A stretch of 5,554 nucleotides of DNA from a virus (taxonomy: Duplodnaviria; Heunggongvirae; Uroviricota; Caudoviricetes), in the IMG/VR virus record IMGVR_UViG_2698536506_000004, one strand, 5' to 3'. Below the pieces are notes generated by a model, which was not told the origin of the DNA, did not search any database, and was given only the letters and a program-made list of their open reading frames with translations. This document shows positions 1 to 2,988 of the stretch, piece by piece (position 1 is the stretch's first letter; the number at the start of each line of letters is the position of its first letter). The position numbers and the translations under genes were made by a program.

Positions 1-217
1 CTTTTTTTATCGTCGTGGTGAGTCGAGACATAAACCGCTGATGTCGTGGCTGGCCTGGCTGCTGATGCTGCTTTATGCCTTTGCGCCGCTTTGTTATCTG
101 TGTGGTCGCTTTCCACCCGGTAACTGGCTGGTCGTCCTGATTAACCTGGTGTTCTGCGTGCTGGTGATACGAGCACGCGGGAACGTATCAAAAATCCTTG
201 TATTACGAAGGCGCTGA
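1..217 (+). CDS. Putative holin-like small membrane protein (class II-like, two predicted TM helices); 5' end may lie upstream of the window, only in-window start is ATG at 41
   Basis: Frame 2 is open from position 2 to stop TGA 215-217. From ATG 41 the product is MSWLAWLLMLLYAFAPLCYLCGRFPPGNWLVVLINLVFCVLVIRARGNVSKILVLRRR (58 aa): two hydrophobic stretches separated by a short RFPPGN turn, then a basic C-terminal tail, which is typical holin architecture. The stop lies 1 nt before the endolysin start (219), the usual holin-endolysin arrangement. No convincing SD precedes ATG 41, so the true start may be upstream. No homolog recognised from memory. Confidence 0.5.
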   Translation, partial: FFYRRGESRHKPLMSWLAWLLMLLYAFAPLCYLCGRFPPGNWLVVLINLVFCVLVIRARGNVSKILVLRRR

Positions 218-218
218 T

Positions 219-710
219 ATGAAGTCGAAAGATGAAATTTTTGACGAAATTCTGGGAAAAGAGGGCGGTTACGTCAATCACCCGGATGATAAAGGTGGTC
301 CGACTAAATGGGGCATCACTGAAAAAGTTGCCCGTGCACACGGTTATCAGGGCGATATGCGTGACCTGACGCGNNNNNNNNNNNNNNNNNNNNNNNNNNN
401 NNNNNNNNNNNNNNNNNNNNNNNNNNNNNNNNNNNNNNNNNNNNNNNNNNNNNNNNNNNNNNNNNNNNNNNNNNNNNNNNNNNNNNNNNNNNNNNNNNNN
501 NNNNNNNNNNNNNNNNNNNNNNNNNNNNNNNNNNNNNNNNNNNNNNNNNNNNNNNNNNNNNNNNNNNNNNNNNNNNNNNNNNNNNNNNNNNNNNNNNNNN
601 NNNNNNNNNNNNNNNNNNNNNNNNNNNNNNNNNNNNNNNNNNNNNNNNNNNNNNNNNNNNNNNNNNNNNNNNNNNNNNNNGGCTGGATGAAAGAGCGCGT
701 GGCTGTGTGA
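219..710 (+). CDS. Endolysin, glycoside hydrolase family 108-like lysozyme with probable C-terminal peptidoglycan-binding domain; interior hidden by assembly gap
   Basis: ATG 219 preceded by GAAGG (207-211) at 7-nt spacing. N-terminus MKSKDEIFDEILGKEGGYVNHPDDKGGPTKWGITEKVARAHGYQGDMRDLTR carries the EGGY...DxGGxTxxGIT signature I associate with GH108 phage lysozymes (catalytic Glu in EGGY). The frame re-emerges after the N-run as GWMKERVAV then TGA 708-710. No hydrophobic SAR/signal segment at the N-terminus, so it is holin-dependent. Frame continuity across the gap cannot be verified. Confidence 0.78.
   Translation: MKSKDEIFDEILGKEGGYVNHPDDKGGPTKWGITEKVARAHGYQGDMRDLTXXXXXXXXXXXXXXXXXXXXXXXXXXXXXXXXXXXXXXXXXXXXXXXXXXXXXXXXXXXXXXXXXXXXXXXXXXXXXXXXXXXXXXXXXXXXXXXXXXXXXXXGWMKERVAV
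374..680. other. Assembly gap (run of 307 N)
   Basis: Uninterrupted N characters from 374 to 680; true length and content unknown. All ORF-track entries crossing it are partly virtual. Confidence 0.99.
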
Positions 711-799: not shown

Positions 800-1006
800 A
801 TGAAGTACTATGTTCACACTCTTACAGATAATCAGAACGATCATGAGGTTCATACAGAAACATGTTTTCGACTTCCTGATGCAAACAATCGTAAAGAGCT
901 TGGAGAGTTTAGCTCATGTGAGCCGGCAGTGAAGGCCGCAAAAAATCTGGGTTACACGAGGGTGAATGGATGTTACTGGTGCTGCAGAGATTGCCATACA
1001 TCCTGA
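800..1006 (+). CDS. Hypothetical small cysteine-rich protein (68 aa), moron-like
   Basis: ATG 800 preceded by AAGGAG (786-791) at 8-nt spacing; stop TGA 1004-1006; followed by an intrinsic terminator. Product MKYYVHTLTDNQNDHEVHTETCFRLPDANNRKELGEFSSCEPAVKAAKNLGYTRVNGCYWCCRDCHTS has Cys at 22, 40, 58, 61, 62, 65 and His at 6, 15, 18, 66; no TM segment. The ORF-track entry from 752 uses an upstream TTG lacking an RBS. Family not recognised. Confidence 0.6.
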   Translation: MKYYVHTLTDNQNDHEVHTETCFRLPDANNRKELGEFSSCEPAVKAAKNLGYTRVNGCYWCCRDCHTS

Positions 1007-1085: not shown

Positions 1086-1367
1086 ATGTACGCACTCAAG
1101 AAAATCACGGTAACAGAAGACGGTCGTCATGTTGAGGAAGTGCATGTCCTGGGGGATATGTACCGCCTGGAGTTCTATCCGCGTAACACTCATCTTGCAG
1201 CGAAGATTGAGTATTGCCGGGACGGGAATATTCCGTGCATTCCTGTAGAAAAAGAGGATGAAGCCTACATCATCACACTGAACGGTGACACGGCGCGTTG
1301 TATCTGTCGTGGCGACAGTGAAGCCCGGAATGAAATAGCAAGATGTCGCGCCCATACAGATAAATAA
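1086..1367 (+). CDS. Hypothetical small protein (93 aa), moron-like
   Basis: ATG 1086 preceded by GGAGG (1076-1080) at 5-nt spacing; stop TAA 1365-1367; followed by an intrinsic terminator. Product MYALKKITVTEDGRHVEEVHVLGDMYRLEFYPRNTHLAAKIEYCRDGNIPCIPVEKEDEAYIITLNGDTARCICRGDSEARNEIARCRAHTDK; Cys at 44, 51, 72, 74, 87; no TM segment. Family not recognised. Confidence 0.6.
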   Translation: MYALKKITVTEDGRHVEEVHVLGDMYRLEFYPRNTHLAAKIEYCRDGNIPCIPVEKEDEAYIITLNGDTARCICRGDSEARNEIARCRAHTDK

Positions 1368-1377
1368 AAAGCAAAAA

Positions 1378-1409
1378 CCCCGGCTGCGGGAACAGTTCGG
1401 GGTTTTCTG
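1378..1409 (+). terminator. Rho-independent terminator, possibly bidirectional
   Basis: CCCCG (1378-1382) pairs with CGGGG (1398-1402), with an inner CTG/CAG stem (1384-1386 / 1393-1395) around a 6-nt loop, followed by TTTTCTGTTTCTG (1403-1415). An A-rich run (1361-1377) upstream would give a U-tract for the minus strand as well. Confidence 0.65.
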
Positions 1410-1438
1410 TTTCTGACCTTGAGTAAGCAAGGGAGAAC

Positions 1439-1621
1439 ATGGAGAAGTATAAACGAATTCTGTTGAGGTTGACTATGAAAAACGGCCTTGAATTGAAAGC
1501 GCCTGTAACTGATGACATCAGCAGAGCGGTGGCTTTTGCCATTAAGTGGGTGGCGGTCGGCATCGCCGTGTCTCCGATGCTGTATGGGATGGCAAAGTTG
1601 ATTGTTGCTCTGAAATCGTGA
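1439..1621 (+). CDS. Hypothetical small membrane protein (60 aa; C-terminal TM helix); alternative start ATG 1475 (48 aa)
   Basis: ATG 1439 preceded by AAGG/GGGAGA (1429-1436); the internal ATG 1475 also has GAGG (1465-1468) at 6-nt spacing. Stop TGA 1619-1621. Product MEKYKRILLRLTMKNGLELKAPVTDDISRAVAFAIKWVAVGIAVSPMLYGMAKLIVALKS: a basic amphipathic N-terminus and a single hydrophobic segment (about residues 30-57) ending 3 residues before the C-terminus. Confidence 0.5.
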   Translation: MEKYKRILLRLTMKNGLELKAPVTDDISRAVAFAIKWVAVGIAVSPMLYGMAKLIVALKS

Positions 1622-1629
1622 GTGGTGAT

Positions 1630-1812
1630 ATGACGCGAAAACACTGGACACACAGAATGCCGCGAACGGCGGCGAAATGGGCACTGGTAGCGATACTGGT
1701 GCCTTTTTTATTGTCGGGATGCGTCAGCCTGGATAGGGCGCGTCAGCTTTTGGATGCTGCCTCTCAGGTCTGTGAAATTGTCAATGGTGTCCGGCAGTGT
1801 ATGCAGAACTGA
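1630..1812 (+). CDS. Hypothetical small lipoprotein (60 aa precursor; lipobox LSGC); alternative start ATG 1657
   Basis: ATG 1630 lies 8 nt after the stop of the preceding gene, suggesting translational coupling; the SD is weak (GGTGA 1624-1628). Product MTRKHWTHRMPRTAAKWALVAILVPFLLSGCVSLDRARQLLDAASQVCEIVNGVRQCMQN: basic n-region, hydrophobic core WALVAILVPFLL and lipobox L-S-G-C, giving a ~30-aa mature peptide with four Cys including the lipidated one. Stop TGA 1810-1812. Confidence 0.55.
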   Translation: MTRKHWTHRMPRTAAKWALVAILVPFLLSGCVSLDRARQLLDAASQVCEIVNGVRQCMQN

Positions 1813-1974: not shown

Positions 1975-2196
1975 ATGAAGAGATTACTGGTAACCGTAAA
2001 GCCCTTTAACGGAACGATTCCATTCAGGGTTTTGCAGCGTGGACGTGTTCTGGTTAAGGATATCTTCAGTGGTAAATGCACGGAATGTTATTCCCGGACA
2101 TATGAAGTGGATGCCACGGATGAAGAAATTTCTGTTGAATGTGATCTTAACGCGAATATGGCGGAGATTGTAACAGCCACGTTGTTGCCTGTTTAA
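1975..2196 (+). CDS. Hypothetical small protein (73 aa) immediately upstream of cos, moron-like
   Basis: ATG 1975 preceded by GGAGG (1966-1970) at 4-nt spacing; stop TAA 2194-2196. Product MKRLLVTVKPFNGTIPFRVLQRGRVLVKDIFSGKCTECYSRTYEVDATDEEISVECDLNANMAEIVTATLLPV; CxxC at 35-38 plus Cys 56; no TM segment. The ORF-track entry from 1852 is an N-terminal over-extension. Family not recognised. Confidence 0.55.
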   Translation: MKRLLVTVKPFNGTIPFRVLQRGRVLVKDIFSGKCTECYSRTYEVDATDEEISVECDLNANMAEIVTATLLPV

Positions 2197-2439: not shown

Positions 2440-2988
2440 ATGAAGGTTAATAAAAAGAAGCTCGCGGAAATTTTCAACGTGGATCCACGAACGATTGAAC
2501 GCTGGCAGTCTCAGGGGCTCTCTTGTGTCTCTGGTGGTAGTAAGGGGGTTGAATCTGTATTTGATACCGCCATGGCAATTCAGTGGTATGCGCAACGCGA
2601 AGCCGATATTGAAAACGAAAAACTCCGCAAAGAGACCGAGGATTTGCGTGCGGCTGCGGAATCAGATTTACAACCCGGCACCATTGACTATGAACGCTAC
2701 CGACTCACAAAAGCACAGGCTGATGCACAGGAACTGAAAAATGCCCGCGAAGAAGGGCTGGTACTGGAAACGGAATTGTTTACCTTCATTCTGCAACGTG
2801 TGGCACAGGAGATTTCGGGGATACTTGTACGTGTGCCGCTGACATTACAGCGTAAATATCCGGATATTTCACCGTCACACCTTGATGTGGTGAAAACTGA
2901 AATCGCAAAAGCCTCCAACGTTGCAGCTAAAGCTGGTGAGAACGTAGGCGGGTGGATTGATGATTTCAGACGCACAGAAGGCAGCTAA
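2440..2988 (+). CDS. nu1: Terminase small subunit (lambda gpNu1 homolog)
   Basis: Product [41 protein letters not shown]...[28 protein letters not shown]... is closely similar to lambda Nu1 (MEVNKKQLADIFGASIRTIQNWQEQGMPVLRGGGKGNEVLY...[28 protein letters not shown]..., from memory); 182 aa against 181 in lambda. Stop TAA 2986-2988. The ORF-track start at 2422 is an over-extension into cosB. Confidence 0.93.

What the first reader, a model, noticed from the sequence alone, without database searches (positions are those of the whole stretch)
1439..1812. Translationally coupled pair: C-terminally anchored small membrane protein plus small Cys-containing lipoprotein
The 60-aa product of 1439-1621 has one TM helix at its extreme C-terminus and a basic amphipathic N-terminus. 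The next gene starts 8 nt after its stop and encodes a lipoprotein precursor (lipobox LSGC) whose ~30-aa mature part has three more Cys and no prolines. The location after an endolysin invites a spanin call. It does not fit: an i-spanin needs an N-terminal TM helix and a long periplasmic coiled coil, and o-spanins are typically proline-rich. A membrane protein plus lipoprotein pair in a prophage accessory region is more consistent with a superinfection-exclusion, receptor-blocking or toxin/immunity-like module.
Basis: partly seen in the sequence, partly recalled or inferred. Interest (0 to 1): 0.6.

Follow-up and report, generated by a model that had tools for sequence, protein, structure and literature searches.

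The report
Orphan lipoprotein in the spanin slot
The two small genes are real but are not an obligate pair; the lipoprotein is the last gene of the prophage's lysis cassette, sits exactly where other phages carry their outer-membrane-breaking spanin genes, and never occurs intact together with them, so it is probably a new partner-less way for a phage to breach the outer membrane.

Summary
Both ORFs are real genes under purifying selection: A (1439-1621, 60 aa, C-terminal TM helix) and C (1630-1812, 60 aa lipoprotein precursor). One detail is wrong. Mature C has two further Cys, not three.

A and C are not an obligate pair. In 200 distinct related lysis cassettes, A occurs without C in 70 and C without A in 54, and a third small gene (B) often lies between them.

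C always ends the late lysis cassette, after holin(s) and endolysin. With one and the same holin and M15 endolysin, the gene 15-20 nt after the endolysin is either C or lambda-type Rz/Rz1.
- 117 cassettes have C only.
- 74 have Rz/Rz1 only.
- 4 have neither.
- 1 has both, and there C is a pseudogene.

Kongari et al. 2018 listed the phiP27 homologue as a singleton o-spanin. The i-spanin they paired with it is an antisense artefact.

Best reading (about 0.55): a lipoprotein-only outer-membrane-disruption lysis protein. No evidence supports superinfection exclusion or a toxin/immunity module. A is an accessory lysis-cassette membrane protein of unknown role, possibly controlled by an antisense RNA. 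All evidence is comparative.

The parts
41..217 (+). 3' part of the second holin (Phage_holin_3_7); the first, multi-TM 'putative holin' lies upstream of the window
   Evidence: Pfam 1e-11 and phrog_217 holin. Full genes seen in E. coli C5.
228..710 (+). GH108-type endolysin; its middle is masked by N (374-680)
   Evidence: PGAP 'glycoside hydrolase family 108 protein' in the 99.9% identical strain C5. Full sequence in L005.
800..1006 (+). 68-aa Cys-rich small ORF (phrog_4298), followed by a terminator-like hairpin at 1030-1051; variable cargo
1086..1367 (+). 93-aa ORF (phrog_33497); variable cargo that often precedes A
1366..1410 (.). Conserved A-tract/hairpin/T-tract (stem 1373-1382 with 1398-1406) that travels with gene A. 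It looks like a bidirectional terminator, with the stronger T-run on the minus strand.
   Evidence: Present, with differing loops and inner-stem bases that keep the pairing, in the distinct A upstream regions listed (25 of 42) of both C-type and Rz-type cassettes. Scans; fold.
1439..1621 (+). Gene A: 60-aa membrane protein. The core is an invariant C-terminal TM segment (residues 30-60: F33 A34 I35 K36 W37 ... Y49 G50 ... K59). The N-terminus is variable and basic.
   Evidence: phrog_1115/4493/3246, function unknown. Occurs with either C or Rz/Rz1 downstream.
1446..1475 (-). Candidate sigma-70 promoter for an RNA antisense to A's ribosome-binding site and start codon (-35 TAGTCA, 18 nt spacer, -10 TATACT)
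   Evidence: Same position in L002. Improved to 10/12 matches in the 50%-identical A' of L003. Sub-threshold Rfam sar and ohsC matches on this strand. Unproven.
1630..1812 (+). Gene C: lipoprotein precursor. Signal peptide is residues 1-30 (1630-1719), lipobox LSGC, and lipid-modified Cys31 is at 1720-1722. The mature part is 30 aa, CVSLDRARQLLDAASQVCEIVNGVRQCMQN, with invariant C48 and C57.
   Evidence: It occupies the spanin slot.
1679..1714 (+). Conserved hairpin (11 bp, -18 kcal/mol, z -3.8) plus a T6 run inside the signal-peptide coding part of C; intrinsic-terminator-like
   Evidence: kept in 55 distinct gene sequences. Synonymous diversity is halved there (pS 0.093 against 0.21-0.26).
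1975..2196 (+). 73-aa ORF (phrog_2571); variable cargo before the terminase genes
2440..2988 (+). Terminase small subunit Nu1, which marks the start of the packaging genes (gpA, gpW and portal follow)
   Evidence: Pfam Phage_Nu1 2e-83.

Best explanation
The window is the late region of a lambdoid E. coli prophage: two holins, a GH108 endolysin, small cargo ORFs, A, C, then the terminase genes.

Gene C encodes a 60-aa prolipoprotein. Inferred steps: it is exported by Sec, lipid-modified at Cys31 and sorted to the outer membrane, because residue +2 is Val and is never Asp in the family. That would leave a 30-residue helical peptide with two invariant Cys on the periplasmic face.

C is the terminal gene of this type of lysis cassette. 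It stands in for the Rz/Rz1 spanin and most likely performs or enables the third lysis step, breaching the outer membrane after the holin and endolysin have acted. It does this without a phage i-spanin. Both the slot position and the absence of an i-spanin are shown by comparative data.

How it works is inferred only. The closest working precedent is the colicin lysis (bacteriocin release) proteins. These are lipoproteins of about 28 residues that permeabilise the outer membrane by activating phospholipase A. Alternatives are disulfide-linked oligomers that perturb the membrane, or recruitment of a host inner-membrane partner.

Gene A is not C's partner. It is a separate small membrane protein, tail-anchored and probably N-in, carried in the lysis cassettes of both C-type and Rz/Rz1-type phages. 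It is plausibly a holin-level accessory or regulator, and may itself be held in check by a cis-antisense RNA. The 8-nt A-C spacing reflects a general habit of C, which always abuts whatever gene precedes it (1-20 nt).
For: (1) Position. In 160 loci fetched with A or C as query, the order is always endolysin-(cargo)-A-(B)-[C or Rz/Rz1]-(cargo)-Nu1.

(2) Sample fetched with the holin, so not chosen for C or Rz. Of 80 loci, 67 have C, 5 have Rz/Rz1, none has both, and 8 have neither (4 of those are cut by a contig end).

(3) Same background, same nucleotide slot. L015 has hol37-M15 endolysin, then C 15 nt after the stop. L221 has hol37-M15 endolysin (90-98% identical), then Rz/Rz1 15 nt after the stop. 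In 60 of 64 M15 cassettes where the endolysin is the nearest upstream marker, C starts about 20 nt after it.

(4) After removing duplicates there are 200 cassettes: C only 117, Rz/Rz1 only 74, neither 4, both 1. Fisher p is 7e-48 overall and 8e-6 within hol37 cassettes, but the loci are not phylogenetically independent. The single 'both' case (L152) has a C copy with four in-frame stops. Two of the 'neither' cases carry LT-II toxin genes in the slot, and one of those has a frameshifted endolysin.

(5) No partner.
- A generic lipobox and TM scan finds no other Rz1-like or i-spanin-like gene within 5 kb of C, nor anywhere in the complete phiP27 genome.
- Kongari's phiP27 'i-spanin' ORF exists in 3 of 248 loci, is broken by a stop in 2 of them, and is antisense to an intact 90-aa gene.
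- The upstream 'putative holin' is a multi-TM protein, not an i-spanin.

(6) Deep conservation of context. Divergent family members (P0253, P0247) keep the C-x16-C-x8-C pattern. They sit immediately after an M15 endolysin in three-gene cassettes with a different holin family, Phage_holin_3_1.

(7) Purifying selection and invariant lipobox and Cys residues.

(8) Expression logic. No + strand promoter-like site was found in 700-2500. Terminator-like hairpins lie upstream, and a conserved hairpin with a T6 run lies inside C. This fits expression only from Q-antiterminated late transcripts.

(9) Isolated phages carry C and no annotated spanin: phiP27 and phiSTEC1575-Stx2k.

(10) Precedents. Disruptin shows that non-spanin outer-membrane disruptors exist, and about 15% of phages lack spanins (abstract of 10.1101/515445). 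Colicin lysis proteins are 47-aa precursors giving 28-aa lipoproteins that permeabilise the outer membrane via phospholipase A and are lethal if overexpressed (PMC2896534).
Against: - There is no experiment on any member of the family. All evidence is positional and comparative.
- The loci are mostly E. coli prophages related by descent, so the exclusivity counts overstate independence.
- A mature peptide of 30 residues cannot span the periplasm. Its net charge is 0 and its helical amphipathicity is unremarkable (13% of shuffles score as high), so no mechanism follows from the sequence.
- There is no sequence similarity to colicin lysis proteins, entericidins, Rz1 or any Pfam, NCBIfam or PADLOC family. 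The only link is a weak PHROG match to an 'Rz-like spanin' family (E 0.043), probably driven by the signal peptide.
- Some cassettes carry neither C nor a spanin, and 91 of 677 phages in Kongari et al. have no spanin. The slot can therefore hold non-lysis cargo, and a spanin is not obligatory.
- Lipoprotein morons such as lambda bor also sit next to lysis genes.
Confidence: 0.55

Rival explanations
1. C is a late-expressed envelope lipoprotein that is not needed for lysis. It could be a Llp/Cor-like receptor mask that protects progeny from debris or excludes superinfecting phage, or a Bor-like conversion factor. These phages would then simply be spanin-less. This is essentially the first reader's view.
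For: C is a small outer-membrane lipoprotein with conserved Cys, as Llp and Cor are (from memory). The region between endolysin and Nu1 is a cargo hot spot holding LT-II toxin genes, o68, o93 and o73. Four cassettes have neither C nor a spanin. 91 of 677 phages lack spanins.
Against: - C is strictly exclusive with Rz/Rz1 at the same nucleotide slot in the same holin and endolysin background, and the one co-occurring copy has decayed. A non-lysis moron should co-occur freely with spanins, as bor does.
- No + strand promoter-like site was found upstream (700-2500), and a terminator-like hairpin lies inside the ORF.
- C is tightly packed behind the endolysin across deep divergence.
- It is not near tail or receptor-binding genes.
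- It matches no defence or exclusion family.
Confidence: 0.2
2. C is a genuine o-spanin that works with an inner-membrane partner not recognised as an i-spanin. The partner could be A or B where present, one of the two holins, or a host inner-membrane protein with a long periplasmic reach. The mechanism would still be bridging and fusion of the two membranes.
For: Kongari et al. classed the phiP27 homologue as an o-spanin. It has conserved periplasmic Cys, as in spanins where intermolecular disulfides are near universal. There is a weak phrog_6073 'Rz-like spanin' match. A gene with a TM helix directly precedes C in about half of the cassettes.
Against: - 54 of 118 C cassettes have neither A nor B.
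- A and B also accompany genuine Rz/Rz1 (70 cassettes).
- A is predicted N-in, with only 2-8 residues beyond its TM helix.
- The holins also occur with Rz/Rz1.
- A mature length of 30 aa is far below any known o-spanin and i-spanin sum, and phiP27 was already the extreme outlier in that survey.
- The published i-spanin is an artefact.
Confidence: 0.12
3. A and C form a toxin/immunity-like or addiction module. A would be a small membrane toxin (type-I-like, with an antisense RNA) and C a protective or cooperating lipoprotein.
For: A looks like a small hydrophobic protein with a conserved candidate antisense promoter and terminator over its ribosome-binding site. There is a sub-threshold Rfam match to ohsC, a type I antitoxin RNA.
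Against: A and C assort independently. Both lie inside the Q-dependent late operon rather than as a free-standing locus. C is conserved without A. The antisense promoter is only a 9-10/12 consensus match, and the Rfam scores are far below gathering thresholds (20-23 bits against 43-50).
Confidence: 0.06
4. The ORFs are chance or decaying reading frames with no function.
For: PGAP leaves C unannotated in the nearest genome and in several others. phiP27's record annotates a different frame.
Against: pN/pS is 0.23 and 0.35. The lipobox and Cys residues are invariant across at least 119 protein clusters at 90% identity and in divergent members. C is present in 314 of 5426 complete E. coli genomes.
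Confidence: 0.02

Closest known systems
Two-component spanins (lambda Rz/Rz1), specifically the 'PhiP27' singleton o-spanin family of Kongari et al. 2018 (PMC6139136)
   Same: C is 85% identical to the phiP27 protein listed there as an o-spanin (record 20706-20861). It is an outer-membrane-type lipoprotein, lies in the lysis cassette, has conserved periplasmic Cys, and occupies the same gene slot as Rz/Rz1.
   Different: There is no i-spanin. The ORF paired with it in that survey is an antisense artefact, and none exists in 117 cassettes. The mature length is 30 aa, it is predicted helical with no proline, and it cannot reach across the periplasm.
Unimolecular spanins (T1 gp11)
   Same: A single gene with an N-terminal lipoprotein signal, in the spanin position.
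   Different: C has no C-terminal transmembrane domain and only about 30 periplasmic residues. u-spanins have a far longer periplasmic domain (about 100 residues from memory), described as beta-rich.
Colicin lysis proteins / bacteriocin release proteins (e.g. ColE7 Cel)
   Same: Both are very small lipoproteins (47-aa precursor with 28-aa mature part, against 60 and 30 aa here) that are sorted to the outer membrane. Colicin lysis proteins compromise the outer membrane, are lethal if over-expressed and are tightly controlled (PMC2896534). This is the best 'works like' precedent for a partner-less lipoprotein that opens the outer membrane.
   Different: There is no sequence similarity (no Pfam hit at E up to 1). 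C is encoded in a phage lysis operon rather than a colicin operon, and has a Cys pair and a long conserved basic n-region. Dependence on phospholipase A is untested.
Disruptin (phiKT gp28)
   Same: A non-spanin small protein that replaces spanins for outer-membrane disruption in a spanin-less phage.
   Different: Disruptin is a cationic antimicrobial-peptide-like protein and, from memory, has no lipobox. Mature C has net charge 0 and is lipid-anchored.
Small accessory lysis membrane proteins such as Lcc6 of Shewanella phage LambdaSo (and the Mu releasin)
   Same: Relevant to gene A (and B). Lcc6 is a 65-aa single-TM phage protein required for lysis at the holin step.
   Different: Lcc6 has an N-terminal TM helix and is encoded far from the lysis genes. 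A has a C-terminal TM helix and no sequence similarity was seen. A's role is untested.
Superinfection-exclusion lipoproteins Cor (phi80/N15) and Llp (T5)
   Same: Small outer-membrane lipoproteins with Cys residues encoded by phages (from memory).
   Different: Those genes lie by the tail or receptor-binding genes and are expressed early or in lysogens. C is in the late lysis operon, has no promoter-like site upstream, and is exclusive with spanins. No family match was found.

Membership tests
Two-component spanin (Rz/Rz1 type) | i-spanin: type II inner-membrane protein with an N-terminal TM helix and a long periplasmic coiled-coil domain, encoded with the o-spanin | tested here: not met
   A has a C-terminal TM helix and a basic N-terminus and co-occurs with real Rz/Rz1. 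No candidate lies within 5 kb in 117 cassettes or anywhere in the whole phiP27 genome. The published phiP27 i-spanin is an artefact.
Two-component spanin (Rz/Rz1 type) | o-spanin: lipoprotein with a lipobox and an outer-membrane sorting signal (no Asp at +2) | tested here: met
   Lipobox L(S/V/A/G)GC is present and the Cys is invariant. Residue +2 is V, A, T, S or G and never D.
Two-component spanin (Rz/Rz1 type) | Combined periplasmic domains long enough to bridge the inner and outer membranes | tested here: not met
   The mature part is 30 aa and there is no partner. Kongari's range is 62-300 aa, and phiP27, already the minimum, relies on the artefactual partner.
Two-component spanin (Rz/Rz1 type) | Located in the lysis cassette downstream of the endolysin | tested here: met
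Two-component spanin (Rz/Rz1 type) | Complements lambda Rz/Rz1 null mutants; the null mutant gives spherical-cell arrest | not testable with these tools
   Needs genetics.
Unimolecular spanin (T1 gp11 type) | N-terminal lipoprotein signal AND a C-terminal transmembrane domain in one polypeptide | tested here: not met
   The lipobox is present, but the mature 30 aa contain no hydrophobic segment. The only hydrophobic window is the signal peptide.
Disruptin (phiKT gp28) | Cationic amphipathic peptide | tested here: not met
   Mature C has 3 K/R and 3 D/E. Its hydrophobic moment of 0.35 is reached by 13% of shuffles.
Colicin lysis protein / BRP | Sequence membership in the Pfam colicin lysis protein family | tested here: not met
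   No Pfam-A family matched at E up to 1.
Colicin lysis protein / BRP | Very small lipoprotein (about 28-aa mature part) sorted to the outer membrane | tested here: met
   30-aa mature lipoprotein; compared with PMC2896534.
Colicin lysis protein / BRP | Permeabilises the outer membrane through phospholipase A (PldA) activation | not testable with these tools
   Needs a pldA host and lipid analysis.
Cor/Llp-type exclusion lipoproteins; known defence systems | Sequence membership, and expression in the lysogen or early in infection | tested here: not met
   No Pfam, PHROG-function, NCBIfam or PADLOC match. No + strand promoter-like site was found, and there is an internal terminator-like hairpin. 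Expression itself was not measured.
Type I toxin-antitoxin (for gene A) | Small hydrophobic toxin plus a cis-encoded antisense RNA over its translation start | tested here: inconclusive
   A conserved promoter-like site and terminator lie on the minus strand. Rfam sar and ohsC matches are well below gathering scores. Toxicity and the transcript are untested.

The most novel reading that the evidence does not exclude
C founds a fourth class of phage outer-membrane-disruption proteins, after two-component spanins, unimolecular spanins and disruptin. It would be a 30-residue, disulfide-bearing outer-membrane lipoprotein that acts without any phage inner-membrane partner, in a colicin-lysis-protein-like or other novel way, and is interchangeable in evolution with Rz/Rz1. 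A conserved intragenic terminator would keep it silent except under Q antitermination.
Probability: 0.4. Interest if true: 0.8.

Novelty: new variant of a known kind. Interest (0 to 1): 0.6.

Why it matters
About one phage in seven of Gram-negative hosts has no recognisable spanin, and only one alternative (disruptin) has been characterised.

A partner-less lipoprotein that swaps one-for-one with Rz/Rz1 in natural cassettes would show a further, very compact solution to the last step of lysis. It occurs in about 6% of complete E. coli genomes and in Shiga-toxin phages such as phiP27 and phiSTEC1575-Stx2k.

It would correct a published spanin assignment (the phiP27 i-spanin). It would flag a gene that annotation pipelines often miss or call in the wrong frame. 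It would also give a 30-residue tool for opening the outer membrane.

The hypothesis can be tested directly with standard lambda Rz/Rz1 complementation.

Tried and rejected
- Pfam, NCBIfam and PADLOC scans of A, B, C and the neighbouring small ORFs gave nothing. PHROGs gave only 'unknown function' families, plus E 0.043 to an Rz-like spanin family for C.
- A PDB sequence search with mature C gave nothing meaningful.
- AF2 models show only helices (C pLDDT 68, A 77). I did not run fold searches because the peptides are too short and featureless.
- A profile search of 1.8 billion representatives found only 23 relatives. All are small lipoproteins of the same family or fragments, with no link to a known family.
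- The genome-contig scan returned one species representative, Salmonella.
- I considered the upstream 'putative holin' as a hidden i-spanin and rejected it because it is a multi-TM protein.
- I considered Kongari's phiP27 i-spanin and rejected it as an antisense artefact.
- I considered C as an amphipathic or cationic peptide and rejected that.
- I considered an Lpp-mimic coiled coil. Heptad-like spacing is visible by eye, but there is no test, so it remains speculation.
- Rfam matched nothing above gathering scores in 700-2500.
- Literature searches found no experimental work on this family.
Full report
**What the window is.** The 5554-bp window is 99.9% identical to a prophage of E. coli strain C5. 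It covers the late region of a lambdoid prophage, in this order:
- the end of a Phage_holin_3_7 holin (41-217); a second, multi-TM 'putative holin' lies just upstream, outside the window;
- a GH108 endolysin (228-710, partly N-masked);
- two small cargo ORFs (800-1006 and 1086-1367), each followed by a terminator-like hairpin;
- ORF A (1439-1621) and ORF C (1630-1812);
- a 73-aa ORF (1975-2196);
- the packaging genes Nu1, gpA, gpW and portal.

No Rz/Rz1-type spanin genes are present in the window or annotated in strain C5.

**Checking the observation.**
- A is 60 aa. Its only hydrophobic segment is at residues 30-48 or later.
- AF2 gives helices at 3-15 and 22-59, with pLDDT above 90 for residues 30-60.
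- Its N-terminal 29 residues carry 7 K/R against 4 D/E.

The description of C mostly holds.
- C starts 8 nt after A's stop.
- It has a lipobox (LSGC, Cys31), and its 30-aa mature part has no proline.
- It has only two further Cys (C48, C57), not three.

Both are real genes.
- Among 55 distinct C sequences and 34 distinct A sequences, pN/pS is 0.23 and 0.35.
- In C, G30, C31, C48 and C57 are invariant.
- The ATG at 1630 is the real start. The internal Met10 that many gene callers use is replaced by I, T or V in homologues, and residues 1-9 are under constraint.
- In A, the invariant core is the C-terminal membrane segment (F33 A34 I35 K36 W37 ... Y49 G50 ... K59). The N-terminus is variable and is replaced outright in some homologues.
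- Both families are confined to prophages of Enterobacteriaceae and are 'hypothetical' everywhere. C occurs in 314 of 5426 complete E. coli genomes and is often left unannotated.

**The pair is not a unit.** BLAST against phage genomes showed the two genes in different phages.
- phiP27 has C but not A.
- PhiR5_2 and its relatives have A, then a 43-aa TM protein B, then a genuine embedded Rz/Rz1.
- E. coli R1 has A-B-C.
- phiSTEC1575-Stx2k has a 50%-identical A' overlapping C.

I fetched 160 IMG/VR loci with A or C as query, and 80 more with the holin as query. After removing duplicates there are 200 cassettes.
- A occurs without C in 70, all with Rz/Rz1 downstream.
- C occurs without A or B in 54.
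- B lies between A and C in at least 25.

The close A-C spacing is therefore not a signature of a two-gene module. C abuts whatever precedes it: A' by 1 nt, B by about 4 nt, A by 8 nt, and the M15 endolysin by about 15-20 nt.

**C sits in the spanin slot.** The gene order is always endolysin-(cargo)-A-(B)-[C or Rz/Rz1]-(cargo)-Nu1. The holin-anchored sample was not chosen for either C or Rz. It contains 67 loci with C, 5 with lambda-type Rz/Rz1, none with both, and 8 with neither, of which 4 are cut by a contig end.

Two loci share the same holin and 90-98% identical M15 endolysins but differ in the next gene. In L015 it is C and in L221 it is Rz/Rz1, in both cases 15 nt after the endolysin stop. 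This amounts to a natural swap.

The overall counts are C only 117, Rz/Rz1 only 74, neither 4, and both 1.
- The single 'both' case (L152) carries a C copy with four in-frame stop codons.
- Two of the 'neither' cases have LT-II enterotoxin genes in the slot, and one of those has a frameshifted endolysin. The partial SerU-LTIIb prophage shows the same arrangement.

Related GH108 cassettes with another holin, in Klebsiella and E. coli phages, carry ordinary overlapped spanins right after the endolysin.

Distant C relatives keep the C-x16-C-x8-C pattern and the roughly 30-aa mature length. These are P0253 and P0247 (hmmsearch E 1e-7 to 1e-13). They lie immediately after an M15 endolysin in three-gene cassettes with a different holin family, Phage_holin_3_1. 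The link between this lipoprotein and the position after the endolysin is therefore old and does not depend on holin type.

**No i-spanin.** A generic scan for lipoboxes in all frames found no other Rz1-like lipoprotein within 5 kb of C. The only other lipoprotein was Bor, on the opposite strand in nine loci. The complete phiP27 genome has no other late-region lipoprotein and no ORF with a single N-terminal TM helix that could serve as an i-spanin.

Kongari et al. 2018 listed phiP27 as a 'separated' two-component spanin. They paired an i-spanin at 20348-20542 (64 aa) with an o-spanin at 20706-20861 (the C homologue, started at Met10). Both were singleton families, and together they had the shortest periplasmic length of all 586 systems. 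That i-spanin ORF:
- starts with TTG;
- is found in only 3 of 248 loci;
- has a stop codon in two of those three;
- is antisense to a 90-aa ORF that stays intact at roughly 50% divergence.

It is an artefact. The family is thus an 'o-spanin' with no partner.

**Most likely function and mechanism.**

What the comparative data show:
- C has the sequence features of a lipoprotein (lipobox, invariant Cys, no Asp at +2);
- it is the conserved terminal gene of these lysis cassettes;
- it is interchangeable with Rz/Rz1;
- no i-spanin accompanies it.

What I infer: C provides the outer-membrane step of lysis. I put this at about 0.55 for a partner-less mode and about 0.12 more for a mode with an unrecognised partner.

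The mechanism is not readable from the sequence. The mature peptide is predicted helical, has net charge 0 and is not significantly amphipathic. The best working precedent is the colicin lysis proteins. These are 47-aa precursors that give 28-aa outer-membrane lipoproteins, activate phospholipase A, permeabilise the envelope and are lethal when over-expressed (PMC2896534). There is no sequence homology to them.

The two invariant Cys could form intermolecular disulfides, as in spanins, or staple a hairpin.

The expression logic fits a dangerous late protein.
- No + strand promoter-like site was found in 700-2500.
- A strong hairpin plus a T6 run lies inside the signal-peptide coding region (1679-1714; -18 kcal/mol, z -3.8). 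It is kept in 55 distinct gene sequences, and synonymous diversity is halved there.
- Such a structure would stop ordinary transcripts, but Q-antiterminated late transcripts would read through it.

**Gene A.** A accompanies both C-type and Rz-type cassettes, so it is neither an i-spanin nor specific to C. Its conserved intramembrane residues suggest a specific interaction within the membrane. Lcc6 of phage LambdaSo is a 65-aa single-TM protein required at the holin step. It shows that such small accessory lysis factors exist.

A always carries an upstream A-tract/hairpin/T-tract. The distinct upstream variants listed (25 of 42) differ in loop and inner-stem bases while keeping the pairing. A also carries a minus-strand promoter-like element inside codons 3-13. 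That element recurs at the same place in PhiR5_2 and, improved to 10/12 matches, in the 50%-identical A'. Together they predict an antisense RNA of about 70 nt over A's ribosome-binding site and start codon (fold -24 kcal/mol, z -3.05). Rfam gives only sub-threshold matches to sar and ohsC on that strand. This is a lead, not a result.

**Rivals.**
- *A non-lysis late lipoprotein (receptor masking, exclusion or conversion), about 0.2.* The slot does hold cargo, and some phages lack spanins. But this reading does not explain the exclusivity with Rz/Rz1, the decayed copy in L152, the tight packing behind the endolysin across deep divergence, or the absence of a promoter-like site upstream.
- *An atypical A+C spanin or an A/C toxin-immunity module.* Independent assortment argues against both.
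- *Chance ORFs.* Purifying selection and the breadth of the family exclude this.

**Novelty.** The phiP27 homologue has been catalogued, from sequence alone, as an o-spanin, so the spanin idea is not new.

What is new:
- the family has no i-spanin, and the published partner is an artefact;
- it swaps one-for-one with Rz/Rz1 in the same cassette background;
- it decays when Rz/Rz1 is present;
- it carries a conserved intragenic terminator-like hairpin.

I rate this a new variant of a known kind (outer-membrane-disruption lysis genes). It would become a new class if a stand-alone mechanism is shown. Everything rests on comparative genomics of related prophages, and the lambda Rz/Rz1 complementation test would settle it.

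Noticed in passing
window 1366-1475, minus strand: There may be a cis-antisense small RNA over gene A's ribosome-binding site and start codon. A conserved minus-strand promoter-like site (TAGTCA-18-TATACT) lies inside A codons 3-13, and a conserved hairpin with a strong minus-strand T-run lies upstream of A. The same arrangement is seen in PhiR5_2 and, at 10/12 matches, in the divergent A' of phiSTEC1575. Rfam matches to sar and ohsC are below threshold.
   Followed up: partly
window 1679-1714: An intrinsic-terminator-like hairpin (11 bp, -18 kcal/mol) plus a T6 run lies inside the C coding region, in the signal-peptide part. It is nearly invariant in 55 distinct gene sequences, and synonymous diversity is about half that of the rest of the gene.
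   Followed up: partly
L001 3171-3365 (phiP27 record 20348-20542): The ORF published as the phiP27 i-spanin is antisense to an intact, conserved 90-aa ORF (L001 3155-3427, minus strand) and is interrupted by a stop in the two other loci that contain it. In the phiP27 records, gene L32 (20630-20785) is called in the wrong frame over the real lipoprotein gene (20673/20679-20861).
   Followed up: yes
L005 3920-4054; L002 3740-3871: Gene B is a 43-44-aa single-TM protein (MSDKLITLAKILCVIVGISFSLMLVALFLS...). It usually follows A and precedes either C or Rz/Rz1, and is absent from this window. One metagenomic protein (P0214) is a B-A fusion.
   Followed up: partly
L240, L242 (about 7950-9170) and L166 3823-4972: In some cassettes of this holin/GH108 type, the slot after the endolysin holds type II heat-labile enterotoxin (LT-II) A and B genes instead of A/B/C. 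One of these has a frameshifted endolysin.
   Followed up: partly
L004 1009-2112 (upstream of the window in E. coli C5): The prophage carries an ompC-like porin gene on the opposite strand between the Q antiterminator and the lysis genes, as well as a DNA methyltransferase and a tRNA-Gly gene.
   Followed up: no
window 800-1006 and 1030-1051: A 68-aa protein has seven Cys, including a CxxCC...C cluster at the C-terminus (phrog_4298, function unknown). It is followed by a clean terminator hairpin, which gives it a moron-like layout.
   Followed up: no
window 374-680: A run of 307 N masks the middle of the endolysin gene. The full sequence had to be taken from related loci (L004, L005).
   Followed up: yes
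phage record PP818812.1: A record named 'Actinobacillus phage vB_Apl-pPE4' carries a 91.5% identical copy of the C region, which is otherwise typical of E. coli prophages. This is an odd host assignment.
   Followed up: no
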